Positions 94 through 48,655 of a DNA stretch of 64,000 nucleotides are shown here, one piece after another. Both the position numbers and the translations under genes were made by a program. Source of the DNA: Anolis carolinensis (Eukaryota); NCBI RefSeq assembly GCF_035594765.1, contig NW_026943825.1:124001-188000 (forward strand), in the 5' to 3' direction. The notes beneath the pieces are model-generated. The model made no database searches, was not told the DNA's origin, and was given only the letters and a program-made list of their open reading frames with translations. The first letter of the stretch is position 1; each line of letters opens with the position of its first letter.

Positions 94-142
<49 letters not shown>

Positions 143-256
143 GAGGGTAGTCCGGCCTCTGAGCAACCTGACGGGCCCTGACTGGTCCCCGCTTGGGAAG
201 CGCCAGGACCCCTGCCGGTCGGGCCCACGGGTGCCGGGTTCGTGCCCCTCGCTCAC

Positions 257-1885
257 CTTGATCTCAATGTTCCCGACTTTGGCGGTGGAGCGGATGACGG
301 GGCGCCCCACCAGCGCCGGGAAGATGTGCTCGGGGAAGTTGGACCCCGCGTAGCCACACTTGACGAACTGCAAACGACAAACAAACACTCTTTGCAAAGC
401 TGGCATTTCTGTCTAGGCACCGTGCTCCTATTGATGCGGACCAGGGTCGCGTTGGCCTTTTGAGCTGCTGCATCACAGTGTTGGCTCATGTTCAGCTGGT
501 GGTCTACTCACTCTCTACACATAATACAAGTGAAAAGAGAGCGCTGGGAAGCCCACCGATGAGGCACCCAGAGCAAACAGGCCCAACATCACACATGTGT
601 AGGTCCTGACGGAGTTTCAGGGGGTTCGTTCCCCCGGCCCGGTGGGAGTTGTTGTTCACCCACAACCGCATGCCTTTTGCACAATAACACAACTGACGAG
701 AGGAAGAGAGGAAGGGGAAGCCCAAGCCCGGCTGTGACTCAGAGCGAGGCTGCAAAGCGGAAGCAGCGGCTGGAAGAGAATCGGCAAAGACTTGCAAAGG
801 AGAAGCGCAAAGGCCTCTCTGCTAGAGAGAGGCTGCCCTTGGGCACCCTGAACCTCCCAAAACTCCCAGTTAACCAGAACCCGGGCAACGGGAACTCTCA
901 AGCAACCAGCAAAAAGAAATGAAGAAAAAAATACTGGGAGTCTGCTGTGTGTATAATGTACTAGCTGTGCCCGGCCACACATTGCTGTGGCCAAGTATGA
1001 TGGTGGTATTGGTTAAAAATTGTTGTGGAATTTTTATTTGACATTATTTGTATTTTTTAATTAATTTTATTGTAAGTACTGTAATCTTTTTATTTATTAT
1101 ATTTTATTATTTTCTAGTATTATTTTGAGTTATTTTCTGTTATTATTGTACTTTATTGTATTAATTTGTTAGTGTTTTTAATTATTTTTAATGGTTTTTT
1201 ATTATTTTTATTGGGTTGCTAGGAGACCAAGTGGGCGGAGCTTAGCCTTCTAACTGGCAGCAATTGGATAAAAGCAATTCTTCCTCTCCCTCTAATTTGG
1301 ACTTTATTTTTCTTTCCTTTTTGTTGTATCAACCTAGAGGCGTGGATGATGGGTTGTGTTGTCAATTTTCCAGTTTGTGGGGTGTTTAGTTTTGTTGTTT
1401 TGGCAGTCGCCAGGATTCCATCACTCTTTTATATATATATATATATATATAGATTTAGCAACGGGAAGGAAGTGCGCTGTGCAAAGGCACCTTGTGCTGT
1501 TCCCCAAAAGCAAACAGGCCTGGACTTTGCCTTCGAACTGCAAGAGCTGCCCATCAGGGCTGGGTGGCCATCTGTCGGGAAGGCTTGGGCTGTGCCTTCC
1601 TGGGCAGCAGCACGGAGTCGGTCTGGATGACCTTTGGGGTCCCTCCCAACTCTAGGATTCCGTCATCGTCCTCTTTGATAATAATAATATTATTTTAATA
1701 ATATTCTATTATTAATATTATTATATTCTAACAATATTATAATTATAATAATGGGCTTGGATGCTGTCACTCTTAATTGCAGAAAGGGGTCGTTCCGAAT
1801 GGCCTTTGGGGTCCCCTCCAACCCTAAGATCCTATCATCACCAAATTTGATAATAAAAATGTTTTAAGAATATTATATTCTAATA

Positions 1886-1934
<49 letters not shown>

Positions 1935-2031
1935 GGCTTGAATGGTGTCATTCTGAATTGCAGAAAGGGGGTCGTTCTGGATGGCCTTTGGGGTCCCCTC
2001 CAACCCCAAGATCCAATCATCACCATCTTTG

Positions 2032-2085
<54 letters not shown>

Positions 2086-2459
2086 TTTTAATAAAATTCT
2101 ATTAATATTATATTCTAATAATATTGCAATTAAATACAGTAGAGTCTCACTTATCCAACACTCGCTTATCCAACGTTCTGGATTATCCAACGCATTTTTG
2201 TAGTCAATGCTTTCAATATATCGTGATATTTTGGTGCTAAATTCATAAATACAGTAATTACTATATAGCATTACTGTGTACTGAACTACTTTTTCTGACA
2301 AATTTGTTGTCTAACATGATGTTTTGGTGCTTCATTTGTAAAATCATAACTTAATTTGATGTTTAATAGGGTTATCCTTAATCCCTCCTTATTATCCAAC
2401 ATATTTGCTTATCCAACGTTCTGCCGGCCCGTTTATGTTGGATAAGTGAGACTCTACTG

Positions 2460-2527
<68 letters not shown>

Positions 2528-2957
2528 GGCTTGGATGCTGGGTGGGTTTCTGGGTGGCCCCTCCAACCCCTCCCCCTAAATAATCAAAACAATCAGGGAA
2601 GCAGTATTACGAAGCGGTATGGAAGCGCGTTACTTTTGCAGTGCAGACGCACTCTGCCTGCAAACAATCCCTCCCGGAACAGAGCAAACAACTTTGGAAA
2701 AGGGGGGGGGGGGGTGTTTGAGCAAGAAGGCCACTGATTGCAAATCCCACACGAAACTCTCAGTTAACCGGAAACTCTCAAGCAACCGGCAACGAGAGGT
2801 AATATTATAAACAAATTGGGGGAAAAGAATAAAAAAACGGGAAAAAGATGGAGATGGATATTCCGGTTGCTTGAGAGTTTTTCCTGTTAAGCGGGAGTCC
2901 CGGCCTCACCCCGGTGCCGTTGTCGCAGACCACCACGCGGCGCCCCTGGCTGTCCAT
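257..2957 (-). CDS. ACTR2: Actin-related protein 2 (ARP2), exons 1-2 only; gene continues beyond left edge
   Basis: Exon 1 2910-2957 ([16 protein letters not shown], donor GTGAGG). Exon 2 257-367 ([37 protein letters not shown], tttgcag/GTGAGC). Near-identical to the vertebrate ARP2 N-terminus; orthologue versus paralogue unresolved. Confidence 0.93.
425..508 (-). mobile_element. CR1 LINE ORF2 fragment
   Basis: Translates [16 protein letters not shown], matching the CR1 MSQQC..AA.KAN motif. Confidence 0.65.
961..1453 (-). mobile_element. Non-autonomous Helitron
   Basis: 5' TCTATATA.., 3' GCCAC..GTGGC hairpin plus CTAG, inserted in A|T with no TSD. Confidence 0.8.
2137..2459. mobile_element. 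Tc1/mariner (Tigger/pogo-like) MITE, 323 bp
   Basis: TIR CAGTAGAGTCTCACTTATCCAA, TA target duplication; further copies at 3777-4092, 7946-8268, 26629-27036, 35514-35836, 36770-37092, 46261-46570, 58457-58884. Confidence 0.85.
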
Positions 2958-3240
2958 CGCCGCCCGCTCCCGCCTCCGCCTCCGCCGCCTCCTCTTCCTC
3001 GGTCTCCGGCTGCACCTGGGACACAAGAGCGGGGCGGCGGCGCGCCCACGCCCGCCTGTGATGCAACATCCTGGGCTGGCGGAGCCAAAGAGACGCCCTT
3101 CGCCGCCGCCGCCTCCCCTCCCTCCCTCCCTCCCTCCCTCCCGGGACCGCCTCGATTGCTCGGGGGGAAACGCAGGGCTCCGGGACCTGCTCATGAACTC
3201 CAACATGACCCCCCCCCCCACCCCCCACCCCATCATGAAA
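2880..3240 (-). promoter_or_regulatory. CpG island / promoter and 5'UTR of ACTR2-like gene
   Basis: CpG-dense GC-rich segment surrounding the ATG exon. Confidence 0.6.
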
Positions 3241-5127: not shown

Positions 5128-5536
5128 GAAAGTGGATTCATCATATGTTATATTATTGCAACTGTTGAAGAAAGCGTACCTCTAAGTGAGAAATAACATT
5201 GAAACCACTAAGGAAAGTGGATTCATCATATGTTATATTATTGCAACTGTTGAAGAAAGCGTACCTCTAAGTGAGAAATAACATTGAAACCACTAAGGAA
5301 AGTGGATTCATCATATGTTATATTATTGCAACTGTTGAAGAAAGCGTACCTCTAAGTGAGAAATAACATTGAAACCACTAAGGAAAGTGGATTCATCATA
5401 TGTTATATTATTGCAACTGTTGAAGAAAGCGTACCTCTAAGTGAGAAATAACATTGAAACCACTAAGGAAAGTGGATTCATCATATGTTATATTATTGCA
5501 ACTGTTGAAGAAAGCGTACCTCTAAGTGAGAAATAA
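5128..5536. repeat. 85-bp tandem repeat (~4.8 copies)
   Basis: GAAAGTGG at 5128, 5213, 5298, 5383, 5468. Confidence 0.9.
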
Positions 5537-5878: not shown

Positions 5879-7635
5879 TCAGGCCCCGGATTCCTCCTCG
5901 GGGTGTTTCTGCAGAGCCTCGTCGTCCTGGGGCTTCTGGCTCACAAACACCCTGAGCAGGACGTGGTGGGCGTCGGCGGTGGCCCCGTCCACGAAGGTCT
6001 TGAGCATGTTGTAGGCGGCGGCGAAAGAGCGGCCCTGCGAGGCCACGGGCAGCAGCGGCTTGGGCAGTTTCGGGGCCTTGCTGGCCGCCTCCGCCAGCCT
6101 CTCCACCACGTCCTCGCGGGAGACCTCGGCGGCCAGCGGGCCCTTGACCACGGCCCTGAGCTGGCCGAACGGGAGCCCGGCCTGGGCGGCGGCCTTGCGC
6201 AAGGCGGACTCCTCCAGGCCGAAGTGGACGCAGTATCCGCGCAGCGTCTGGAGGAGCAGCCCCACGTCGGTGGCGATGGACAGCTCGGGGAGGGGCTCCG
6301 GGTCCTGGCCGCAGGCCACCACGGCCACCAGCCACAGCTGCTGCCCCACCACGTCCCGCTTCTTCTCCAGGAGGCGGTGGGAGAGGTTGGGGGCCGCCAG
6401 GAGGAAGGAGTGGCTCCGCGGGAGGCCCAGGTCCCGCCACAGCGTCTCCCCGAGCAGCGGGAGGTCGTACCTGCCGAACGCGAGGCTGGAGACCAGGAAG
6501 ACCTTCGGGAAGGAAAGACACCGGGGTCAGACTCACCGGCTCCCTTCCTGGTGGAGACCACGACCTTCCCCAAGCCTTCTCTCGTCACCCGTCCGTCTAG
6601 GATCCTGTTGCTCACCGTTTCCTGTATGTACCATATATATATATACATTGGATAAGGGGCCGGGCTGTGGCGCAGATGGCTAGTAACCAGCTGCTATAAA
6701 TCACTACTGACCGAGAGGTCATGAGTTCGAAGCCCGGGTCGGGTTAAGCCTACGACCATTAAAAAAATAATAATAATAGCCCCGGCTTGCTGTTGACCTA
6801 GCAGCCCCGAAAGACAGTTGCATCTGTCAAGTAGGGAAAATTTAGGTACGCTTTATGCGGGAGGCTAATTTAACTAATCTACAACACCATAAAACTGCTC
6901 ACGAGGAAAGGAATGAGGAAGAACAGCCACCAATGGACGGTGAAGCAACAGCTCCCCCTGTGGCCGGAATCGTGAAGCTGGAAAGATGTTAAAAATGCCT
7001 CTGTGTCTGTCTAAAACTGAATGTTGTTTGTCTATTGGCATTGAATGTTTGCCATATATGTGTTCATTGTAATCCGCCCTGAGTCCCCTTCGGGGTGAGA
7101 AAGGAGGGCAGAATATAAATACTGTAAATAATAATAAATAAATACATAAATAAGACTCTACTGTATATATATACATATATAGACTAGCTGTGCCCGGCCA
7201 CACGTTGCTGTGGCGAAGTCTGGTGTTTTGGGAAATAAAGTATTGAGGAATCGGTGGTAGTTAAGGTCAAGGGTAAAGGTTTTACCTTACATTATAAATG
7301 GGTTATATAGCTGTGTGGAAGGGCCTTGAGACTACACTGCCATATAATCCAGTTAAAATCAGATAATCTGTATTTTATAGGCAGTGTGGAAGAGGCTTAA
7401 GTGAGGCCTAACTCTGCCTGGGCTGAGTGGGTTGCTAGGAGACCAAGTGGGCGGAGCTTAGCCTTCTAACTGGCAGCAATTGGCTAAAAACAATTATTCC
7501 TCTCCCCCTAATTAGGACTTTATTTTTCTTTTCTTTTTGTTGTATGAACCTAGAGGCATGGGTGAGGGGTTGTGCTGCCAAGTTTAGTGTTTCTGGGATG
7601 TGTCGTTTTGTCGTTTTGTCCTAGGCCGAAATTAC

Positions 7636-7688
<53 letters not shown>

Positions 7689-9419
7689 AGTGATGGCATC
7701 ATGGCGACCCACAAAACAACTAAACTACAGGCCCCCCAACCTCGAAATTTGACCACACATCATCCACGGCTATAGGTTGATGCAACAAAAAGCAAAGAAA
7801 AATAAAGTCCTAATTAGAGGGAGAGAAATAATTGTTTTTATCCAATTGCTGCCAGTTAGAAGGCTAAGCTCCGCCCACTTGGTCTCCTAGCAACCCACTC
7901 AGCCCAGTGTTAATAAAAGAATAAAAAATAAAATAAATACAAATACAGTAGAGTCTCACTTATCCAACGTAAATGGGCCGGCAGAACGTTGGATAAGCAA
8001 ATATGTTGGATAATAAGGAGAGATTAAGGAAAAGCCTATAAAACATTACATTAGGTTATGATTTTACAAATTAAGCACCAAAACATCATGTTATACAACA
8101 AATTTGACAGAAAAAGTAGTTCAATACGCAGTCATGCTATGTAGTAATTACAGTATTTACGAATTTAGCACCAAAATATCATGATGTATTGAAAACATTG
8201 ACTACAAAAATGGCTTGGATAATCCAGAACGTTGGATAAGTGAGTGTTGGATAAGTGAGACTCTACTGTAATACAATAAAAAATAATTAAAAACACTAAA
8301 AAAATTAATACAATAAAATACTATAACAAAATAACTAAAAATAATACAACAAAATAATAAAATATAATAAATAAAAAAGATAAGTTACAATAAAATTAAT
8401 TAAAAAAAATACAAATAACGTCAAATAAAAATTGCACAACAACTTTTAACCAATACCACCACCACTTTGCCACAGCAACGCGTGGCCGGGCACAGCTAGT
8501 ATATATATATATATATATTTGTGTAACTGGAAAACACTTCTAAAGCTCTGCTGTTTTTATGCACTGGCAAAAACCTCTGTTTTCCGAACAGATCAGAGAT
8601 AGCAGGTCATTCAGTCTAACAACCGAAACCTTGCATAATGATATTGGTTGTAGACCACAAGAGGATATTCTACCCTAAAGGCCTTTTGGCTCTTCTTGGA
8701 AAAAGTTATGATTTCCCAGCACGTTCTGCGTGGGGGGGGGCTGGACCGGGCGGCCCACGGGGTCTCCCCTGTGGCTCTGAGACCTTGGGGGACTTGACCC
8801 CGGCGGCCGCGAGGTCCTGCAGGCAGGCTTCCCGGATCTCCTTCAGGGCGGCCGCCTCGCTGAACCCGGCCGGACCCTCCCTCCGCCGCCGCCGGGCCTC
8901 CACGTCCTGGTCCACGCGGGAGCGGACGAAGTAGACGTCGGCCTGGGCCTTCTGGAGGAGTCGGGCCAGCCGGCCGTGGAGGGCCGAGAAGCGCCCGGAC
9001 GAGAGGACCAAGAACAAGTCGTAGCGAGAGAACTCGACCTGCTGCAGGTAGTCCCGGGGCTGGAAACCGGGGCCGCCGATGCTCGGAAGGTCCCACAGCC
9101 TCACGTCCGCGTATTTCGGGTGCGTGTACGGACGGGGCTCCGTGGTGGTAGCCGTGGTGGTGGTGGCGGCGGACCCCCCGGTCGGGGCGGCATCATCGTC
9201 GTCGGCACTCACGTCCCGGAAAGCGTTGATGAAGGTGGACTTGCCGACGGCGGGCTCGCCGGTGATGGCCACGTCCAGGCGGAGGTTCTCCAAGGCCGAA
9301 TGCGCCTCCCGGAGCCGGTCAGAGAGGTCGGAGAAGCTCCCTTTCTCGAAGGCACGTTGGAGGTCCCGGATCTGCATCTCCGTCAGAGAGACCTTGGCCT
9401 CCGTCCCCTTCGCGGACAT
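5879..9419 (-). CDS. Immunity-related GTPase (IRG/p47 family, IRGC / interferon-inducible GTPase 5-like), 419 aa, 2 coding exons
   Basis: Exon 8784-9419: LDVAITGEPAVGKSTFINA (G1), PYTHP, LWDLPSIG (G3), YFVRSRVD (G4). Exon 5879-6502: VFLVSS..RYDLPLL, AAPNLS..LEKKR, ending in TGA. Phase-0 GT..AG intron 6503-8783; acceptor ttccag just upstream of a gccgccATG Kozak context. Confidence 0.88.
6656..7150 (+). mobile_element. tRNA-derived SINE with L2-type tail
   Basis: A box TGGCGCAGATGG, B box GAGTTCGAAGCC, 3' CCGCCCTGAGTCCCC..(TAAA)n tail. Confidence 0.75.
7184..8499. mobile_element. Two Helitrons head-to-head sharing a (TA)n tract, in the IRG intron
   Basis: CTAG termini with hairpins at 7184 (-) and 8499 (+); MITE 7946-8268 nested in the second. 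Confidence 0.78.
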
Positions 9420-9570: not shown

Positions 9571-10494
9571 TGTCATGATCTCCAATCTGTGACAAAGAAC
9601 AGATGCCAGCCATAAAACCTCAATGACCCTCTGGTATGTGAGAGCCCCTATATAAGTGGGCCAAAGAAAAGGTTCTGGTATTCTGTACAATAAAACCTGT
9701 TATGTCATGGTCTCCAATCTTTGACACCTCTGGTCGGCTGACAAAGAACAGATGCCAGCCATAAAACCTCAATGACCCCCTGGTATGTGAGAGCCCCTAT
9801 ATAAGTGGGCCAAAGAAAAGGTTCTGGTATTCTGTACAATAAAACCTGTTATGTCATGGTCTCCAATCTTTGACACCTCTGGTCGGCTGACAAAGAACAG
9901 ATGCCAGCCATAAAACCTCAATGACCCCCTGGTATGTGAGAGCCCCTATATAAGTGGGCCAAAGAGAAGGTTCTGGTATTCTGTACAATAAAACCTGTTA
10001 TGTCATGATCTCCAATCTGTGACATCTCTGGTTGGCTGACAAAGAACAGATGCCAGCCATAAAACAGGCCAGCCATAAAACCTCAATGACCCCCTGGTAT
10101 GTGAGAGCCCCTATATACGTGGGCCAAAGAGAAGATTCTGGTATTCTGTACAATAAAACCTGTTATGTCATGATCTCCAATCTGTGACATCTCTGGTTGG
10201 CTGACAAAGAACAGATGCCAGCCATAAAACAGGCCAGCCATAAAACCTCAATGACCCCCTGGTATGTGAGAGCCCCTATATACGTGGGCCAAAGAGAAGA
10301 TTCTGGTATTCTGTACAATAAAACCTGTTACGTCATGATCTCCAATCTGTGACATCTCTGGTTGGCTGACAAAGAACAGATGCCAGCCATAAAACAGGCC
10401 AGCCATAAAACCTCAATGACCCTCTGGTATGTGAGAGCCCCTATATATGTGGGCCAAAGAGAAGGTTCTGGTATTTGGTACAATAAAACCTGTT
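9571..10494. repeat. Tandem repeat, 6 units of 132/149/165 bp
   Basis: Unit starts at 9571, 9703, 9852, 10001, 10166, 10331. Confidence 0.92.
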
Positions 10495-11801: not shown

Positions 11802-12024
11802 TGTGTATTTATAAAGGCACACAAGGCGGAGCTGTCTGTCCGGCGTCTCGTATCAACTCAAGATTAATCAGATTTAAGGCATTTCTCGGAAGGTCTTGAA
11901 CATGTCACACTAAATCCCTTTTTAAAAAAAAAAAAAAATCTGTTTTAAAAATCACACTTAATTACAAAAGATTCGTCAAGAGAACATTTACAACAGGAAG
12001 ACGAGGCCGGATCGTAGTCGGGCT

Positions 12025-38100: not shown

Positions 38101-39613
38101 TGTGCCATGGGAAAATAGACTATGTATCTGTGGCCAAAGTCAGGTAGAAGACATTGTGCATTACATGTTAGTTTGTCCATTGTATAGTGCCCCAAGAGAA
38201 AGACACCTGGAACCCCTGCTAACCCATGGTAAAGGGAATTGCTTAGCAGAAACTGTGCATTTTCTGCTGAGTGACACAAACAACTAAGGAACTCACAAAG
38301 CAGCCCTGTTTGCTCTATCTGCAAAAAAGATAAGAAAGGTAGAATTAGATAAAATTGCCATCAACTGCCGAGGAAACTCAAAGGATTAAGTGGACTCACA
38401 ATATGCATCTGTATGTGAACTCTTTTGCAATATTTTTTTTAAATTACTGTTAACTGGCATTGTTTTAACTCCTTGCGGGAGCATGATTATGGCTTCTGCT
38501 CAGTATTTTTGGAGTCTATTGCTCCGAGGGTACTATTGTGTGCATGTGTTGCTTTTTGTCATGGCCTTGGGCCCGTACAATAAACTATTTTGGATTTATT
38601 TATTCATTTACATCACTTTTGCTCCGCCTTTCTCCCCGAGGGGACTCAAAGTGGCTGACAATAAACAGGCAAAAATTCAATGCCTAAAACAATGTAAAAA
38701 CAACAATTCATTTAAAACAATCTACAAAACAAAAATTCATATAAACAAATACCATTACAAAGTAAAATCACATTATATAAAATTTTAAGCGTGTCCAGAA
38801 TTAGAATCCATTCATCCAGAATCCTCAATAAGTTTTCATACAGGTCATGTAAAGTCCATGTTCTCATTCATTAAAAGCTTGTGTGCACAACCAGTTATTA
38901 CACTACTATTCCTGTTCCTGGTTTGAAAGCGTCATTTCCTGTTTCACTGTGTAGTCCTTGCTTCGAAAGCGGTTGTTCTATTCCAGAAACTTGGTTGTTT
39001 TTGTGGCTGAATTGGTTGAGACTCGATGATGAGAGATTCATTGGGAAACTATAACAGCAAAACGTGCTATGGCAGGATCTCCCTCCCGCAGAAACAAAGT
39101 TTGTGCAGTATGAGTTTTCCAGGCTGTATGGCCATGTTCCAGAAACATTCTCTCCTGACGTTTTGCCCACATCTATGGCAAGCATCCTCAGAGATTGAGA
39201 GGCCTTTTGGAAACTAGGCAAGTGAGGTTTAGGTATCTGTGGAATGTCCGTGGCGGGAGAAAGAACTCTTGTCTGCCCGAGGCAAGTGAATGTTGCCATT
39301 GGCCACCTTGATTGGCATTGAATGACTTTTCAGCTTCAAAGCCTGGCTGCTTCCTGACTGGGGGAATCTTTTGTTGGGAGGTGTTAGCTGCCCTGATTGT
39401 TTCATGCCTAGAATTCCTCTGTTTTCTGAGTATTGTTCTTTATTTGCTGTCCTGATTTTAGAGTTTTTAAATACTGATAGCCAGATTTAGTTCATTTTTA
39501 TGGTTTTCTCCTTTCTGCTGAAATTGCCCTTGAGCTTCTTGTGGATTTCAGTGGCTTCTCTGTGTAGTCTGACATGGTGGTTGTTAGAGTGGTCCAGCAT
39601 TTCTATGTTCTCA

Positions 39614-39695
<82 letters not shown>

Positions 39696-42514
39696 GTGTT
39701 CGACTTGTGATTTTGTGATACGAAATCCAGCATAACTATCTTGTTTGCTGTGTCATACAATAAAATAATAATAATAATAATAATAATATGTGCTCACAAA
39801 ATTTATTAATATTGTTCTCTTATTAAGAGAATAAGAGAACTGGGCCTGAATATATTGCACAAGATTTCTCTAGCCTAAAATGATACATTTTAATATATTG
39901 GGTTTATGGTTCCCGTCTCCTTGATCAGGTCATGTAAGTGTTATTGATTTCTATAATTGTATTTTTACTTTGCTTAATAATGTGTTACTATGTTGTTATG
40001 TAATATTTGTGTTGTTTTTATGATTGGAAGCCGCCCTGAGTCCCATCCGGGAGATAGGGCGGTATATAAATAAAGTTTTATTATTATTATATTATTATTA
40101 TACTGTAAGCTAAGTCCGGAGAAGTGTGTCACAAATAAAATATTATTGTCCTTGCAGAACCACATCTATGCGGCCCGGAAGGCCTTTGACAGCTTCTTCC
40201 TGCGCTACCCGTACTGCTATGGCTATTGGAAGAAGTACGCCGACATGGAGCGGCGCTTCGACTTCATCAAGGAGACAGAGGAGGTAGAGGAGACCCTCCA
40301 GTCCCTCCCGACAGATGGCCAGCCGGACTGATCCTTTCTTGCCTATTATAATCCCCTCTCTTCTCTTCTTGGCAGGTCTTCCAGCGCGGCCTGCAGTCCA
40401 TCCCGCTGAGCATGGACCTCTGGATCCATTACATCTCCTTCCTCCAGTCCTCCTTGGACATGAACCATCCTGATTCGGCCCAGAAGATTTGTGGGTAAAT
40501 CATAATAATAATAGAATTTCTTACCTGAGGCGGATTGCAGCCCAATTAAAACACACAAACATTGCAAAAATCCTAGAAATACACACATTGAATGTATTTC
40601 TGTAAAAGATACTTATTAAAATGTATTACTATTGTTGTCATGGTTGTTAAGCAAAGTCTGGGTGGCCTCTTTGATGCATATGCTCATCTCAGCCTAGACT
40701 TAATTTCTCTCTATATATAATCTCTAGTATTATTATTATTAAGCAGAGGTTGGGTGTGTCTATGTCTATAATCTCTATTATTATTATTAAGCAGAGGCTG
40801 TGTGGCCTCCAAAGCATATAGTTACCTCAACCCAGACTTACACACACAACCTCTCTCTCTCTTTCTATATATATATATATATATACAGTAGAGTCTCGCT
40901 TATCCAACGTAAACGGGCCGGCAGAACGTTGGACAAGCTAATATGTTGGATAATAAGGAGAGATTAAGGAAAAGCCTATTAAACATCAAATTAGGTTATG
41001 ATTTTACAAATTAAGCACGCAAACATCATGTTATACAACAAATTTGACAGAAAAAGTAGTTCAATGCGCAGTAATGCTATGTAGTAATTACTGTATTTAC
41101 GAATTTAGCATCAAAATATCACGATATATTGAAAACATTGACTACAAAAATGGCTTGGATAATCCAGAAGCTTGGATAAGCGAGTGTTGGATAAGTGAGA
41201 CTCTACTGTGTATATATATATATATGTGTGCGTGTGTGTATATATATATATAATTTCCATTATTATTATTAAGAAGAGCCTTGGTGTCTCTTTGTTTATA
41301 TAATCCTAATAATGATGATGATGATGATGATGGAGATTATATATAGAGAGAGAGTAAATAAGTCTGTGCTGAAACGACTGTACACTTTAAAGAGGCCTCC
41401 CAGCCTCTGAATAATAATAATAATAATACTTTATTTATACCCCGCCACCATCACAATAATAATAATAATTTTTATTATTCAGAGGCTGGGAGGCCTCTTT
41501 GAAGCATACAGTCATCTCAGCCCAGACTTACTTCCTCTTTCTATTATATCCATCATGGCCATCTGTCGGGAGGGCTTGGGTGGTGCCTTCCTGGCTCAAT
41601 ACTGGCCTTGATCCTGCGACTTTTCCATTGTCAACGGCCATCTCTCTCTCTCTGTCCCTCCTGGCAGGACCTTTGAATCGGCCATTGCCGCGGCTGGGGT
41701 GGACTTCCGCTCAGACAAGCTGTGGGAGATGTACGTGGAGTGGCAGCGGGAGCAGGGCGACCTCAAGGCTGTCACCGGTGTCTACGACCGTGTCCTCAGC
41801 ACTCCCACCCAGCTCTACAGCCACCACTGGGAGAAGTACGCTGGGCAAACTGGGAGCAGTGGGGCCACTGCATAAGGGCAGCTACCCCTCTTGGCCTTCT
41901 CTCTTTGGGAACTGATGATAATATTGTTGTACTATATTATTATTTGTATTATTGTTATTATTAATATTATTATGGCTTCTCCAAATCCCCATGGATGCCA
42001 TGGGTTAGCTAAGAATCTATTGTGTTATTATTATAACTCCTTGGTTGCATTAGTTGTCTGGGTCTTTTTGGTTGTCTGAGTCTTTGTTGTTGTTGTTGTT
42101 GTTGTTCTGGCCTCTCCCAATCCCTATGGTTGCCATAGCTTAGCTGAGAGTTTGTATTATTATTGTTACTATTATAACCCATTGGTGCCATGAGTTACCT
42201 GAGAGTCTATTGTATTATTATCTCATTGGTGCCATGAGTTGTCTTGAGTCTATATTATTATTATTGTTATTGTTCTTATTATTCTGGCTTCCCTCAATCC
42301 CCATGGCTGCCTTGGGTTAGCTGAGAGTTTATTGTATTATTATTATTATTATGGCTTCTCAATCCCCATGGGTACCTTGGGTTAGCTGAGAGTTTTATTG
42401 TATTATTATTATAACTCATTGGTGCCATGAGTTATTTTAGTCTATTGTATTATTTTATTCTTATTATTCAGGCTTCTCCCAATCTGCTTGGGTGCCATAG
42501 GTTAACTGAGAGTC

Positions 42515-42557
<43 letters not shown>

Positions 42558-45500
42558 TCTGGCTTCTCAATCCCCATGGGTACCTTGGGTTAGCAGAGAG
42601 TTTATTGTATTATTATTATTATTATTATTATTATGGCTTCTCCAAATCCCCATAGGTGCCTTGGGTTAACTGAGAGTCTCTTCTATTAATATTATTATTA
42701 TTATTCCCACCCAGGTTCAAGGAGCACCTGAGCAGCCACCACCCGAGGGACATCCTCTCCTCAGAGGAGCTGCTCTGGATCCAGTCGAAGATGGCCGCCG
42801 ATGCCGGGCGGAGCAAAGGCCTGGAGGGGGGGCCCGAGGAGGAGGAGGAGGAGGGGGAAGAGGAGGCCCCGCCCCCAGGGGAGGAGCTCCCACCCCCCAA
42901 GAGGGAGGCCCCCCCGCCCATGGAGGGTTCCGGACAAGCGGGACACGTGATGGTGAGTCCTGGTCCCGTATATCCCTCTTGGCTGCTTCCGCTTTTGGTC
43001 CACAGCTGTTATTAGATTATTATATTATATGCTAGTATGATATATATTCACACACATAGATTCATACAAGCTGCCCCCGAGTTAAAAACATCCACTTAAA
43101 AAGGACTCCTATTTAAGAACGGGGCTGAGACAACAGGAAGTGAGAGGCACATTGTATATAATTATAGCGTTTTATAGTGTTTTCAGTGTTTTATTGTACA
43201 ATGTTTTATGCTGATTTTATATTTGAAACCGCCCTGAGTCCCTTTTAGGAGAGAGGGCGGTATACAAATAAACTTTTACTTACTTACTTACATGAGGCCA
43301 CAAGAATGTGAATGAATACTATTGTCATTTTAAACTGTTTATTTTATGATGTTTTATACTTTCTTGTTGATGTATTTGGATTGTTTATTATATATTTTAT
43401 TTATATATTACAATATTTATATCCCACCCTTCTCACTCAACAGGGGACTCAGGGCGGCTTACAAAAAACACATTATTATACAGTGCACTATAAAGTTTAA
43501 AAATTTATTTTTTTAACTAAAGCGGGATATAAATAAAGATTTGTTGTTGTTGTTACTAGTGTTATCTATATATATATAAAAGAGTGATGGCATCACGGCG
43601 ACCCACAAAACAACCAAACTACAGGCCCCCCAACCTTGAAATTTGACAACACAATCCATCATCCATGCCTCTAGGTTGATACAACAAAAAGAAAAGAAAA
43701 ATAGTCCTAATTAGAGAGAGAGGAATAATTGCTTTTATCCAATTGCTGCCAGTTAGAAGGCTAAGCTCCTCCAACTTGGTCTCCTAGCAACCCAATAAAA
43801 AACAATAAAAAACACTAAAAATAATAAAAAACACTAAAAAATTAATACCATAAAATACCATAATAACAAAAAATAACTAAAAATTATACAAGAAAATAAT
43901 AAAATATAATAAATAAAAATATAACTTACAATAAAATTAATTAAAAAATACAAATAACGTCAAATAAAAATTACACAACAATTTTTAACCAATACCACCA
44001 CCACTTTGCCACAGCAATGCGTGGCCGGGCACAGCTAGTAATATTATATGATTATATTTCTTAATACTCTGTATTAATAGTGTGCTGTATGGTCTGTTTG
44101 TTCCTGGGTGCCAGGGTCCGATGGATGAAGACAAAATCCTGGAGATGTCCCTCTCAATACGGCAGCAGATCTTCAGCCAGAACGAGGCCGAAGTCAGCAA
44201 GCGCTGGAACTTCGAGGAAGGGGTTCGTATGGCTTATTCTAATGTTAAAGCAGGAGCTTCCTCCATGTCGTAAAAGGCTCAAATCCTGCTTGGAGGTGGC
44301 ACTCATGTCGCCTCCGAGGTTGGCTCTGCAAAGCAACAAAGAGAGAGCAACGGAAGCGAGCCCTCAACGCTCCCGGGTTGTTTCCTCCAGATCAAGCGGC
44401 CCTACTTCCACGTCAAGCCCTTGGAGCGAGCGCAGCTGCGCAACTGGCGCGAGTACCTGGACTTTGAAATAGCCAACGGGTCCCACGAGCGCACCATCGT
44501 CCTCTTTGAGCGCTGCGTCATCGCCTGTGCCCTCTACGAGGAGTTCTGGATCAAGGTAGGAAAGAGGAGATTTCCTGGTTCGAAAGTGTTATTTCCTGTT
44601 ACATTTGTGGCCTTTCCTTTGGAAGTACTCCAGAAACTTCATTTTTGTCTTATAGTAGTATAATAATAAATTATCATAGTAAGTTATAATATACTAGCTG
44701 TGCCCGGCCACGCGTTGCTGTGGCGTTGTCTGGTGGTGTGGTGAGAAATTGTTGAGGTAGTGGTGGTATTGAATGTCTGTTATATGGTTGTCTTTATGTT
44801 TAGTATGCACACTGAAGTGGATTATATGGCAGTGTGGAGTCAAGATAATCCAGTTCAAAGCAGATAATATAAGATTATAAATGGGTTATATAGCTGTGTG
44901 GAAGGGCCTTGAGTCTACACTGCCATATAATCCAGTTAAAATCTGATAATCTGTGGAAGAGGCCTAACTGTGCCTGTCCCCTGGACTGAGTAGGTTCCTA
45001 GGAGACCAAGTGGGCGGAGCTTAGCCTTCAAACTGGCAGCAATTGGATAAAAACTATTATTCCTCTCCCTGTAATTAGGACTTTATTTTTCTTTTCTTTT
45101 CGTTATATCAACCTAGAGCCGTGAATGATGGGTTGTGTTGTCAGATTTCGAGGTTGGGGGGCCTGTAGTTTTGTCGTTTTGTCCTCTGCCCTGATGCCAT
45201 CACTCTTTTATATATATAGATGATATTTTAACAATATATCCTAATGCAGTGTATTGCAATAATAAATACAGAAATAATATATTTTGTCCTATGTTGTTTG
45301 GGCCTCTGCCCCATGTAAGCCGCCTCGAGTCCCCGCGGGGAGATGGTGGCGGGGTTTAAATAAAGTTTTTATTATTATTATTATTATTATTACATACAGT
45401 AGAGTCTCACTTATCCAGCATAACAACAACAATAATAATAGTACAACTGCATTGAAGGACCTATAAAATGGCTAGAGTTTTTTTAGAGAGATAAAGTGCG

Positions 45501-45909
45501 TATAAATAATAATTATAATAATAGTCACTGTGTGCACGGGAGGAGCTAGAGATTCCTAGAGAAGTATTTTCTCGGCATTCATGGGGGTTATGGGCCCAGG
45601 ACTCTATGAAAGAAACATACTGTTGATTGATCACAGAGGTGATGACAATGAGGATGACAGTAATGACAATAATGCTTAAGAATGTCTCTCCTCCCCTGAA
45701 CGCAGTACACGAGGTACCTGGAGAGTCACAGCGTGGCCGGGGCCCGCAACGTCTTCCAGCGCGCCTGCTGCTACCACCTTCCCCGGAAGCCCACCATCCA
45801 CCTCCTCTGGGCCGCCTTCGAGGAGAAGCACGGTGAGCGAGATTGGATAATTCTATTATTATTCATAATATTTGAAGGCCCTTGGGGTCCCAACTCTAGG
45901 AGTCTATGC

Positions 45910-45950
<41 letters not shown>

Positions 45951-46626
45951 GATACTATTTGATACATAACAAGATTAATCTAATGATTCTATTTTTATCT
46001 TTTTATTGCTGCTACAATCCCCCCACCTATGAATTTGAATGATTTGTATTGGTGGTTGTTTGATACTATTACTGTTGTATTAATTTTTGTTTTTATTACC
46101 ATATTGTGTTTTAATCTGTGCATATTGTGTTAACGTATGTGTGTTGTTCTTTTGTAACATTGTAAGCCACCCCGAGTCCCCGCGGGGAGATGGTAGCGGG
46201 GTATAAATAAAGTTTTTTAAAAATTATTATTATTATTATTATTTATTAGTAGTAGTAGTACAGTAGAGTCTCATTTATCCAAGCTAAACGGGCCAGCAGA
46301 AGCCATTTTTGTAGTCAATGTTTTCAATATATCGTGCTATTTTGGTGCTAAATTAGTAAATACAGTAATTACTACATAGCATTACTGCGTATTAAACTAC
46401 TTTTTCTGTCAAATTTGTTGTATAACATGATGTTTCAGTGCTTAATTTGTAAAATCATAACCTAATTTGATGTTTAATAGGCTTTTCCTTAATCCCTCCT
46501 CATTATCCAAGATATTCGCTTATCCAAGCTTCTGCCTGCCTGTTTAGCTTGGATAAGTGAGACTCTACTGTATTATGATTATTATTAAGAGAGACTGGGT
46601 GGCCATTGGTTGGAAGTCTATGATTC

Positions 46627-46683
<57 letters not shown>

Positions 46684-46722
46684 ATAGAGACTGGGTGGCC
46701 ATTGGTTGGAAGTCTATGATTC

Positions 46723-46758
<36 letters not shown>

Positions 46759-47112
46759 ATAGAGACTGGGTGGCCATTGGTTGGAAGTCTATGATTCTAT
46801 TATTGTTATTATTACTATATTATTAAATAGAGGCTGGGTTGTGATTTGCTGGAAGTCTATGATTCTATTATTGTTATTATTACTATATTATTAAATAGAG
46901 GCTGGGTTGTGATTTGTTGGAAGTCTATGATTCTATTATTGTTATTACTATATTAATAGAGGCTGGGTTGTGATTTGTTGGAAGTCTATGATTTTTCTAT
47001 TATTATTGTTGTTATGATTATTGTTGTTGTTGTTATTATTAAGTAAAGGCTAGGTGGCCATCTGTTGGGAGGTAGTCTATGATTCTATTGTTGTTGGAAG
47101 TCTATTATTCTT

Positions 47113-47147
<35 letters not shown>

Positions 47148-47904
47148 TTATTATGACACAGCAAACAAGATAGATATGCTGGATTTCATATCACAAGATC
47201 ACAAGTCGAACACTTCCCAAGTGTCTAGGACTGTGTGATGTATTTTCGGATGATGTGCGCAGATCCCAGTCGGGTGGCCTTTTGCAGTTGGCATTTTTTT
47301 ATTATCATCATCATCATCATTATTATTATTATTATTAAGTAAAGGCTAGCTGGCCATTTGTTGGGAGGTAGTCTATGATTCTATTGTTGTTGGAAGTCAA
47401 TTATTCTGTTGTTGTTGTTGTTGTTGTTGGAAGATAGTAGGTGCCCGTTGGCTGGGTGTGGCTGTCCCTGGGTGGCCCCTTCTGAGCCCTGTTCCCCGTG
47501 TGCTTCCCTCCCTCGGTCTGTGCAGGGGAGGTGGAGGAGGCGCGGCGCATCCTGCGCACCTTTGAGGAGTGCGTCCCGGGCCTGGCGATGGTGCGCCTGC
47601 GGCGGGTGAGCCTGGAGCGGCGTCAGGGCAACATGGAAGGGGCGGAGGCGCTGCTGGCGGCCGCCATCCGGGAGAACGAGGGCCTGCCCGTCTCCTCCTT
47701 CTACTCCGTCAAGCTGGCCCGACAGGTCCTCAAGGTCCAGAAGAACATCACCAAGGCCCGCAAAATCCTCCTTGAAGCCCTCGAGAAGGACCCCGTCAGT
47801 ATTATTTCTGTTGGGATTTTTATATTACAATGTTCTGTATTATTAGTACTACGGTACTATATTATTAGATTATTTTTGTATTGCTATATTATATTTGTAT
47901 TACA

Positions 47905-47955
<51 letters not shown>

Positions 47956-48655
47956 GCTGTAGCCAGAAAAAAAAATTCAGGAGAGGTTTTGTAAATTTTG
48001 GGGGGGGGGGTTGAACCCCTAGCACACACCTCTCCCCGCTACAAACCTGTCAATATCTGCTTGAGATAGTGCCTGGAGGGACTCTTAATGTTTTGCGTCT
48101 CATAGACTTAGCATGGGGATTTGGTTAACCAGTTAAAATTCATGAGTAAACCAGGTTTTTTTTTATAACCTGAAAAATTTCGGGGGGGGGGGGGGGGGGT
48201 TGAACCCCTAAAACCACCNNNNNNNNNNNNNNNNNNNNNNNNNNNNNNNNNNNNNNNNNNNNNNNNNNNNNNNNNNNNNNNNNNNNNNNNNNNNNNNNNN
48301 NNNNNNNNNNNNNNNNNNNNNNNNNNNNNNNNNNNNNNNNNNNNNNNNTGTTAAAGCGCTGAGCTGCTGAACTTGCAGACCGAAAGGTCCCAGGTTCAAA
48401 CCCCGGGAGCAGCGTGAGCGGCCGCTGTTAGCTCCAGCTTCTGCCAACCTAGCAGTTCGAAAACATGCCAATGTGAGTAGATCAATAGGTACTGCTCCAG
48501 CGGGAAGGTTATGGCGCTCCATGCAGTCATGCCAGCCGCATGACCTGGAGATGTCTCTGGACAACGCCGGCTCTTTGGTTTAGAAATGGAGATGAGCACC
48601 AGCCCCCCAGAGTCGGTCACGACTGGACTTAACGTCAGGGGAAAACCTTTACCTT

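What the first reader, a model, noticed from the sequence alone, without database searches (positions are those of the whole stretch)
8915..9270. IRG with poly-threonine switch I and altered G3/G4 motifs: pseudo-GTPase or kinase decoy?
Seen: G1 is intact (GEPAVGKS), but switch I reads APTGGSAATTTTATTTEPRPY (an ACC/ACG codon expansion), G3 is DLPS rather than DLPG, and G4 is SRVD rather than TKVD. Established: in mouse Irga6 switch I (TGVVEVT) holds catalytic E106 and T102/T108, which Toxoplasma ROP18 phosphorylates. Inference: the catalytic Glu is missing and target-like threonines are multiplied while the 419-aa frame stays open. This fits a catalytically altered regulator or a decoy against apicomplexan kinases.
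Basis: partly seen in the sequence, partly recalled or inferred. Interest (0 to 1): 0.7.

Follow-up and report, generated by a model that had tools for sequence, protein, structure and literature searches.

The report
Catalytically disarmed lizard immune GTPase
This anole gene belongs to a lizard-and-snake branch of immunity-related GTPases that lacks the residues its mouse relatives need to split GTP and so likely acts as a brake on its active relatives, while the threonine run that drew attention was seen in this one species only and is likely incidental slippage.

Summary
The motifs are as quoted, but the finding is two things of different age. Old: the gene (Anolis carolinensis XP_008123411.2; 419 aa only after splicing a 2,281-nt intron) belongs to a single squamate IRG clade (13 named species, SH-aLRT 100) whose closest turtle and alligator relatives are fully canonical. 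In the clade 0 of 14 keep the Irga6 Glu106, 0 of 14 keep the G3 glycine, and switch I is the least conserved six-residue window of the protein (26% identity against 64% overall), the reverse of canonical IRGs. That supports a hydrolysis-dead quasi-IRG that arose separately from IRGQ and lacks the GMS motif; a brake on active IRGs is inferred, not shown. Young: the threonine run, G57A and K168R occur only in A. carolinensis, on a GC-drifting branch; the other 13 orthologues lost the Thr108 target, and the last threonine is polymorphic. The kinase-decoy reading is not supported. SKVD is an ordinary G4, and Glu106 loss alone is common (53 of 221 other IRG domains). Contigs also show an in-frame splice form lacking G4.

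The parts
8784..9419 (-). Coding exon A, 212 codons: N-terminal helices and G domain up to the strand before G5
   Evidence: 100% to RefSeq XP_008123411.2
9237..9260 (-). G1 GEPAVGKS; Pro at Irga6 78 clade-wide, Ala at Irga6 Gly79 only in this species
9141..9182 (-). Switch I: Thr80 (Irga6 T102) kept, no Glu106, six-residue insertion
9141..9164 (-). Imperfect ACC/ACG run, T86-T93; last codon Thr/Pro polymorphic at 9143
9081..9092 (-). G3 DLPS (Gly129 to Ser, clade-wide)
9033..9041 (-). Alternative splice donor CAG|GTCGAG at 9039|9038; use skips 255 nt in frame (residues 128-212, including G4), 334 aa
   Evidence: 55-nt junction contig in run X3; same contig break in X15; frame computed
8910..8921 (-). 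G4 SRVD (SKVD or TKVD in the other 13 clade members)
6503..8783 (-). Phase-0 intron, 2,281 nt, GT..AG, weak donor AAG|GTCTCA, full of dispersed repeats; absent from the paralogues of this genome
   Evidence: paralogue halves contiguous
5879..6502 (-). Coding exon B, 207 codons plus stop: end of G domain and C-terminal helical domain

Best explanation
The gene encodes a squamate IRG that keeps the IRG fold and core nucleotide-binding residues but lacks the catalytic switch I glutamate and the G3 glycine, so it is predicted to be hydrolysis-dead and likely restrains active IRG paralogues by binding them, as mouse IRGM proteins do; the threonine run is likely slippage in the freed loop. Shown: clade membership, motif losses, reversed conservation of switch I, splicing, single copy. 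From established biochemistry of mouse Irga6: every Glu106 substitution tested abolished hydrolysis, and T102/T108 alanine mutants did too while still binding nucleotide. Inferred: loss of hydrolysis in the lizard protein (about 0.75); retained GDP/GTP binding in most species (about 0.6); GDI-like binding to canonical paralogues through the G interface (about 0.45). The A. carolinensis-only changes (Thr run, G57A, K168R) are likely passengers of GC-biased drift acting on a relaxed G domain (about 0.8).
For: Clade of 10 squamate rows at SH-aLRT 100 on a 0.48 stem, sister (97) to turtle+alligator IRGs (16 rows at 100). Irga6 numbering from an ungapped match to Pogona. Clade: Glu106 0 of 14, Thr108 1 of 14, Gly129 0 of 14 (13 Ser, 1 Asn); others: 168 of 223, 195 of 223, 203 of 230. 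Kept: Glu77 14 of 14, Lys82 13 of 14, Asp126 13 of 14, Lys184 13 of 14, Asp186 14 of 14. Switch I core is the least conserved of 383 six-residue windows in 13 orthologues (0.263 vs 0.644 overall) but rank 354 of 383 in 16 canonical IRGs; matched controls: turtle/alligator 0.954, canonical squamate 0.869, mammal sister group of equal overall identity (0.635) 0.578 with Glu106 in 17 of 19. Python has lost the G1 lysine (GESGVDRA) in a full-length 413-aa record. Fold: pLDDT 82, TM 0.74 to Irga6. Irga6 biochemistry and GMS precedent: PMC3042988, PMC3006384, PMC4774019, PMC2532785 abstract. Canonical candidates to be regulated exist in this genome: L002, L003, L005 keep Glu, Thr and Gly. Passenger reading: 54 vs 14 lineage-specific changes against A. 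sagrei, net +13 G/A/R/P and -21 F/Y/M/I/N/K, GC3 0.936, neighbour AP5B1 exon 0.955.
Against: No biochemistry on any lizard IRG; all catalytic inference is transferred from mouse Irga6 at about 28% identity. Glu106 loss alone is common (53 of 221; 4 of 7 GKS paralogues here), so it does not single out a regulator. The GMS-like D164H is also in 65 of 231 other domains, and R159Q is in only 1 of 14 clade members. Python's lost G1 lysine and the G4-less splice form suggest nucleotide binding may be dispensable, which fits a scaffold better than a GDI-like partner. No codon-level test separates relaxation from diversifying selection. Interferon induction and tissue are unknown. Trees are quick searches without bootstrap and hold no IRGM sequence.
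Confidence: 0.5

Rival explanations
1. Hydrolysis-dead IRG that works as a nucleotide-independent scaffold or adaptor through its helical domain, on the way to an IRGQ-like state, with no role in restraining other IRGs.
For: C-terminal half is as conserved as the G domain (0.669 vs 0.637); Python lost the G1 lysine; an in-frame form without G4 is spliced; the clade has a shortened, Pro/Lys-rich segment where relatives carry a hydrophobic stretch near the C-terminus; the gene sits alone, on another contig than the other IRG loci.
Against: G1 Lys, G3 Asp and G4 Asp are kept in 13, 13 and 14 of 14, and G1, G3 and G4 windows are more conserved (0.76-0.79) than the protein overall, unlike IRGQ, which lacks the motifs.
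Confidence: 0.25
2. Still an active GTPase, using another residue (for example the invariant Glu77 or a partner's glutamate supplied in a heterodimer) in place of Glu106.
For: Glu77 14 of 14, Thr102 13 of 14, Gly103 11 of 14, G1 and G4 largely kept; many reptile and amphibian IRGs lack Glu106, so the family may tolerate it.
Against: In Irga6 no Glu106 substitution allowed hydrolysis; the loop sequence is essentially unconstrained in the clade; the G3 glycine is also gone.
Confidence: 0.12
3. Switch I varies because of an arms race with parasite kinases: as an escape variant across squamates, or as a threonine decoy in A. carolinensis.
For: Switch I is the most variable window and differs between records of one species in A. 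carolinensis (T/P) and A. sagrei (T/K); ROP18 targets T102/T108 in mouse Irga6; the run puts a Thr back at the 108 column.
Against: Run present in 1 of 14 orthologues, absent from A. sagrei; others hold 0-4 Thr; the commoner allele in the runs laid replaces the last Thr by Pro (4 of 4); no length change in the run in those 4 runs' exon contigs; changes on this branch follow GC bias; I found no report of a ROP18-like kinase acting on reptile IRGs in the 10 of 41 papers listed (titles and abstract starts only).
Confidence: 0.07
4. The A. carolinensis copy is decaying: the extra motif changes, weak donors and G4-less splice form are early pseudogenisation.
For: Long terminal branch (0.29 vs 0.067 for A. 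sagrei); G57A and K168R; two non-consensus donors.
Against: Frame open over 419 codons with only in-frame indels; most changes are conservative and GC-directed; spliced transcripts exist; two annotation sets give the same 419-aa model.
Confidence: 0.06

Closest known systems
Mouse Irga6 / Irgb10 (GKS effector IRGs)
   Same: Pfam IIGP 239 bits, best PDB sequence matches, same fold (TM 0.74), GKS in G1, Glu77, Thr102, Gly103, Asp126, Asp186.
   Different: No Glu106, no conserved Thr108, G3 Gly to Ser, Pro in G1, changed Lys161/Lys162/Asn191/Lys196 columns, no Gly2 for myristoylation, coding intron.
Mouse GMS proteins Irgm1-3
   Same: Glu106 substituted and His at Asp164 (PMC3042988 section 16; clade 14 of 14 His); the proposed role as GDP-state brake is modelled on them (PMC2532785 abstract).
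   Different: G1 is GKS, not GMS; position 106 is variable (G, D, A, S, I), not Arg; R159Q in only 1 of 14; G3 glycine lost, whereas Irgm1 keeps DLPG; groups with turtle and alligator GKS proteins.
IRGQ and zebrafish irgq1-3 (quasi-GTPases, Bekpen 2005, PMC1297648)
   Same: IRG homologue with a modified nucleotide site and doubtful GTPase activity; regulatory role was already proposed for such proteins.
   Different: Motifs only partly eroded; no N-terminal extension; this genome has a separate IRGQ-like gene (L009) that falls outside the clade.
IRGC and an amniote sister group of 'interferon-inducible GTPase 5-like' proteins (turtle, alligator, platypus, marsupials, laurasiatherians)
   Same: Joined at SH-aLRT 98; turtle+alligator are the direct sister (97).
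   Different: Turtle/alligator members keep Glu106, Thr108 and Gly129 in 14 of 14; mammals keep Glu106 in 17 of 19.
Fish irgf genes with a coding intron
   Same: One intron near the end of the G domain, 'at the end of helix 4' (PMC1297648 section 12).
   Different: The lizard intron lies at Irga6 Pro226|Ile227, some six residues past that helix by my count; whether the positions coincide could not be checked (figure and .doc supplements not readable).

Membership tests
IRG / p47 GTPase family | IIGP profile match over the full length | tested here: met
   PF05049, residues 16-395, 239.4 bits vs cut-off 24
IRG / p47 GTPase family | G domain between N- and C-terminal helical domains | tested here: met
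   Model pLDDT 82.1; Foldseek top hits Irga6 and GM4951, TM 0.71-0.75
IRG / p47 GTPase family | Open reading frame on one long exon (mammalian and irge type) | tested here: not met
   2,281-nt coding intron; fish irgf genes are a known exception
IRG / p47 GTPase family | Interferon inducibility (not universal: IRGC is not induced) | not testable with these tools
   One GAS-like 9-mer at 11883 in 7 kb upstream, no more than chance by my estimate; no induced RNA data
GKS effector IRGs (Irga6 type) | G1 GxxxxGKS | tested here: met
   GEPAVGKS; Lys in 13 of 14 clade members, lost in Python
GKS effector IRGs (Irga6 type) | Catalytic Glu106 and conserved Thr108 in switch I | tested here: not met
   Glu 0 of 14; Thr 1 of 14, supplied by the run
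GKS effector IRGs (Irga6 type) | G3 DxxG | tested here: not met
   Ser 13, Asn 1 of 14
GKS effector IRGs (Irga6 type) | G4 (T/S)KxD | tested here: inconclusive
   Met in 13 of 14 clade members; K>R in this species, Asp kept; absent from the short splice form
GKS effector IRGs (Irga6 type) | GTP-dependent oligomerisation and cooperative hydrolysis | not testable with these tools
   needs purified protein
GMS / IRGM regulators | Met in place of the G1 Lys | tested here: not met
   Lys 13, Arg 1 of 14
GMS / IRGM regulators | E106R, D164H, R159Q interface substitutions | tested here: inconclusive
   106 substituted but never Arg; 164 His 14 of 14 but also 65 of 231 outside; 159 Gln 1 of 14
GMS / IRGM regulators | GDP-dependent binding to GKS proteins | not testable with these tools
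   needs pull-down or two-hybrid assay
GMS / IRGM regulators | Descent from the IRGM clade | not tested
   no IRGM sequence was among the rows; the clade's sister is a canonical GKS group
IRGQ quasi-GTPases | G1, G3 and G4 motifs unrecognisable | tested here: not met
   motifs recognisable and conserved at 0.76-0.79 versus IRGQ motifs
IRGC orthologues | Phylogenetic grouping with mammalian IRGC | tested here: inconclusive
   hedgehog IRGC-type row P0302 sits in an open fork with the mammal group and the reptile group, support 98

The most novel reading that the evidence does not exclude
Squamates evolved their own IRG master regulator: an amniote GKS-type IRG was converted on the squamate stem, independently of mammalian IRGM and of IRGQ, into a hydrolysis-dead partner that holds effector IRGs in check, gained a coding intron, and in the green anole is further tuned by an alternative splice that removes the guanine-binding motif. 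This would show convergent invention of the IRG brake in a second amniote lineage.
Probability: 0.35. Interest if true: 0.65.

Novelty: new variant of a known kind. Interest (0 to 1): 0.42.

Why it matters
Active IRGs damage host membranes unless restrained, and in mice the GMS proteins do this; fish were reported to lack GMS genes and none of the 9 IRG loci found in this anole genome carries GMS. A conserved, catalytically disarmed squamate IRG beside canonical turtle and alligator relatives is a testable candidate for how non-mammals regulate the system, and a natural series (turtle intact, lizards without switch I catalysis, python without the P-loop lysine) for how a GTPase becomes a pseudo-GTPase. 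The threonine run itself matters little.

Tried and rejected
Complex prediction of the lizard protein with canonical paralogue L002 plus GDP and Mg gave no answer (median 0.32, mark 0.34): not used either way. Sequencing-run search: no RNA holder listed on record; 7 of the 24 listed runs were laid. Runs of three other organisms gave no orthologue: X21 and X24 nothing, X22 one 33-nt low-complexity match to the run. The first lay included the repeat-rich intron, which swamped the joint table. D164H as a GMS signature was rejected because 65 of 231 other domains have it. My interim idea that DLPS was ancestral to the amniote group (from the mole sequence) was rejected: most mammals and 14 of 14 turtle/alligator members have DLPG. 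My early note that the own-genome paralogues are all canonical was wrong: 4 of 7 lack Glu106. ISRE/GAS scan upstream found nothing beyond chance. An indirect look for the fish intron position in truncated records gave only a hint (P0130). The careful tree did not finish; quick trees were used. No gecko, tuatara or advanced-snake member of the clade turned up, which is no evidence of absence. Earlier findings of this scan: none. Literature searches listed no paper on squamate IRGs; one search returned 0 papers; subscription journals are largely outside this library. dN/dS could not be run: only protein sequences of the orthologues were available.

Full report
OBSERVATION. The minus-strand frame from 9419 carries GEPAVGKS (9260-9237), APTGGSAATTTTATTTEPRPY, DLPS (9092-9081) and SRVD (8921-8910) as quoted. 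The genomic ORF stops at 237 aa. Joining exon A (9419-8784) to exon B (6502-5879) across a 2,281-nt GT..AG intron gives 419 aa with no internal stop, identical to RefSeq XP_008123411.2 of Anolis carolinensis; an older model XP_008123411.1 is the unspliced 237-aa form. The gene is single-copy: both halves match only this place closely, and in the seven other loci that match both halves the matches are contiguous, so these have no such intron. Neighbours are an actin-family gene reading like ACTR2 on one side and Ig-domain exons reading like F11R on the other, inside a block with AP5B1, RNASEH2C, a MYST gene, a Rel gene, Bles03, PRP39, Img2 and ubiquitin domains (gene names for the actin and Ig exons are my recognition, not a call's label). 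The Pogona and Hemicordylus orthologues are filed under 'junctional adhesion molecule A' and 'intelectin-1', which suggests the same neighbourhood there.

EXPRESSION AND SPLICING. Of 24 listed runs I laid 7; none is on record as RNA. In run X3 a 313-nt contig runs from exon A into 24 letters that occur once in the window, at the start of exon B, with no cover in the intron start. A second, 55-nt contig joins 9036-9065 to the same exon B letters: an upstream donor CAG|GTCGAG that skips 85 codons in frame (residues 128-212, with G4), giving 334 aa. Run X15, from another study, breaks into contigs at the same places. Both junction contigs have fewer than the 31 letters per side that the tool asks for a bridge, so the short form rests on one direct and one indirect observation; the similar contig depths (32.0 and 32.8) are no measure of share. 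The last Thr of the run is Pro in 4 of 4 runs and in P0028; X3 has one extra Arg codon in a nearby Arg run.

THE CLADE. Searches gave orthologues in 13 named squamates (two anoles, Sceloporus, Pogona, Elgaria, Varanus, Python, Rhineura, Lacerta, two Podarcis, Zootoca, Hemicordylus) and one unnamed record; 11 duplicate or fragment records were set aside before counting. A quick maximum-likelihood tree of 51 chosen rows puts 10 of them in one clade (SH-aLRT 100, stem 0.48), sister (97) to turtle and alligator proteins, with a mammalian group and an IRGC-type row next (98); an earlier 73-row tree gave 16 rows at 100. The presence of a cordylid beside iguanians, anguimorphs, a snake and lacertoids places the origin early in squamates; the crown group is about 190 million years old (PMC12629976, search listing).

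MOTIFS. With Irga6 numbering from an ungapped match: Glu106 0 of 14 in the clade versus 168 of 223 other domains; Thr108 1 of 14 (the run itself) versus 195 of 223; Gly129 0 of 14 versus 203 of 230; Pro at 78 in 10 of 14 versus 8 of 224. Kept are Glu77 (14), Lys82 (13), Thr102 (13), Asp126 (13), Lys184 (13), Asp186 (14). Turtle and alligator relatives keep Glu, Thr and Gly in 14 of 14. Switch I positions 104-109 form the least conserved of 383 windows in 13 orthologues (0.263 vs 0.644 overall) and rank 354 of 383 in 16 canonical IRGs (0.751 vs 0.457); in a mammal group of equal overall divergence the value is 0.578 with Glu106 in 17 of 19. Against over-reading: Ser is the commonest first residue of G4 (129 of 229), His164 is common (65 of 231), and Glu106 alone is missing in 53 of 221 other domains and in 4 of 7 GKS paralogues of this genome; all three losses together occur in 6 of 221 others, all in long multi-domain records, and in 13 of 14 clade members. 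Python's record reads GESGVDRA and DLLN, a further loss.

THE THREONINE RUN. It is in 1 of 14 orthologues; A. sagrei has a different two-residue extension, the rest none, and they hold 0-4 Thr in the loop where ordinary IRGs hold 3-5. Its codons contain a repeated ACC ACC ACG unit, as slippage would leave. The model gives the insert low confidence (residues 83-88 under pLDDT 50) in an otherwise sound IRG fold. The A. carolinensis branch has 54 changes against 14 on the A. sagrei branch, strongly towards GC-rich codons, four of them K>R including G4; GC3 is 0.936, like the neighbouring AP5B1 exon at 0.955 and unlike most paralogues at 0.37-0.61. I read the run, G57A and K168R as passengers on a relaxed domain.

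MECHANISM. In Irga6, dimerisation through the G interface positions Glu106 at the active site (PMC4774019, passages); no Glu106 substitution allowed hydrolysis (PMC3042988, passages and sections 5 and 16); T102A and T108A abolished hydrolysis but not binding, and ROP18 phosphorylates these residues (PMC3006384, passages). GMS proteins carry interface substitutions and hold GKS proteins in the GDP state (PMC2532785, abstract). That the G3 glycine senses the gamma-phosphate is recalled from Ras-family work and comes from no call. I therefore commit to a nucleotide-binding, hydrolysis-dead IRG acting as a GMS-like brake on canonical paralogues such as L002, L003 and L005 (0.5 overall). Shown: sequence, phylogeny, conservation pattern, splicing. 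Inferred: loss of catalysis, binding to paralogues, regulatory role. Rivals: nucleotide-independent scaffold (0.25), active enzyme by another route (0.12), parasite-kinase escape or decoy (0.07), decay in this species (0.06).

COMPARISON AND NOVELTY. It is an IRG by profile and fold; it fails the tests for a GKS effector (Glu106, G3), for GMS (G1 Met) and for IRGQ (motifs still present). Quasi-IRGs are a known kind (PMC1297648: passages, section 12, supplements 5 and 7; its Figure 6 and .doc supplements 9 and 10 could not be read and bear on whether the fish irgf intron matches this one). The protein is already annotated as an IRG, but five searches (titles and abstract starts) listed no description of this squamate clade or its motif losses. 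Membrane-binding segments were compared only loosely with the Irgb10 model (PMC7815755, passages). Verdict: new variant of a known kind; interest 0.42.

Noticed in passing
window 9039|9038 to 6502, minus strand: Alternative in-frame splice removing residues 128-212 including G4; the donor needs the Val codon after QQ, which A. sagrei and Sceloporus proteins lack, so it may be species-specific.
   Followed up: partly
window 6503-8783: Coding intron absent from all paralogues of this genome; AAGGTCT lies at both junctions. C-terminal-only records from Phrynocephalus and Podarcis lilfordi start at the first Met after this position, a hint that the intron is clade-wide.
   Followed up: partly
P0041 (Python bivittatus record): Full-length orthologue with G1 GESGVDRA and G3 DLLN: the P-loop lysine is lost as well.
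   Followed up: no
P0078, P0202-P0240: A mammalian IRG group (laurasiatherians, marsupials, platypus) related to this clade; the placental members lack Glu77 (G1 GG[T/M]GSGKS) while keeping Glu106.
   Followed up: partly
L004, L007 and P0291, P0286, P0295, P0095: Another reptile/amphibian IRG group with Gln at the Glu106 position; L006 and L008 have Ala and Thr there. L007's frame ends at 232 aa.
   Followed up: no
L009 (G000:C12:92434-95964): IRGQ-like gene with no G1 motif, GC3 0.86, outside the clade.
   Followed up: partly
window 9605-10494 and 5128-5536: A 165-bp tandem array (5.6 copies, 95%) begins 190 nt upstream of the ATG, and an 85-bp array (4.8 copies, 100%) lies downstream of the stop.
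   Followed up: no
window 9511: Contigs of three runs (X15, X18, X19) leave the reference at this base with about 105 unlike letters, suggesting a structural difference just upstream of the gene.
   Followed up: no
window 8882: One extra Arg codon in the Arg run of exon A in run X3; this run and a two-residue insert beside it are also specific to A. carolinensis.
   Followed up: no
window 100-3000, 16470-16980, 37265-47960, 55188-55463, 62616-62918; L010-L015: Neighbours: ACTR2-like, F11R-like, PRP39-like, Img2 (MRPL49) and ubiquitin-like exons; further left Bles03, Rel, MYST, RNASEH2C and AP5B1 genes, all very GC-rich at third positions where measured.
   Followed up: partly
window 56598-57215: 205-aa ORF that reads like the C-terminal endonuclease end of a non-LTR retroelement (label recalled, not from a call).
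   Followed up: no
P0031 and P0056: Pogona and Hemicordylus orthologues are named in NCBI as isoforms of junctional adhesion molecule A and intelectin-1, so name searches miss them.
   Followed up: no
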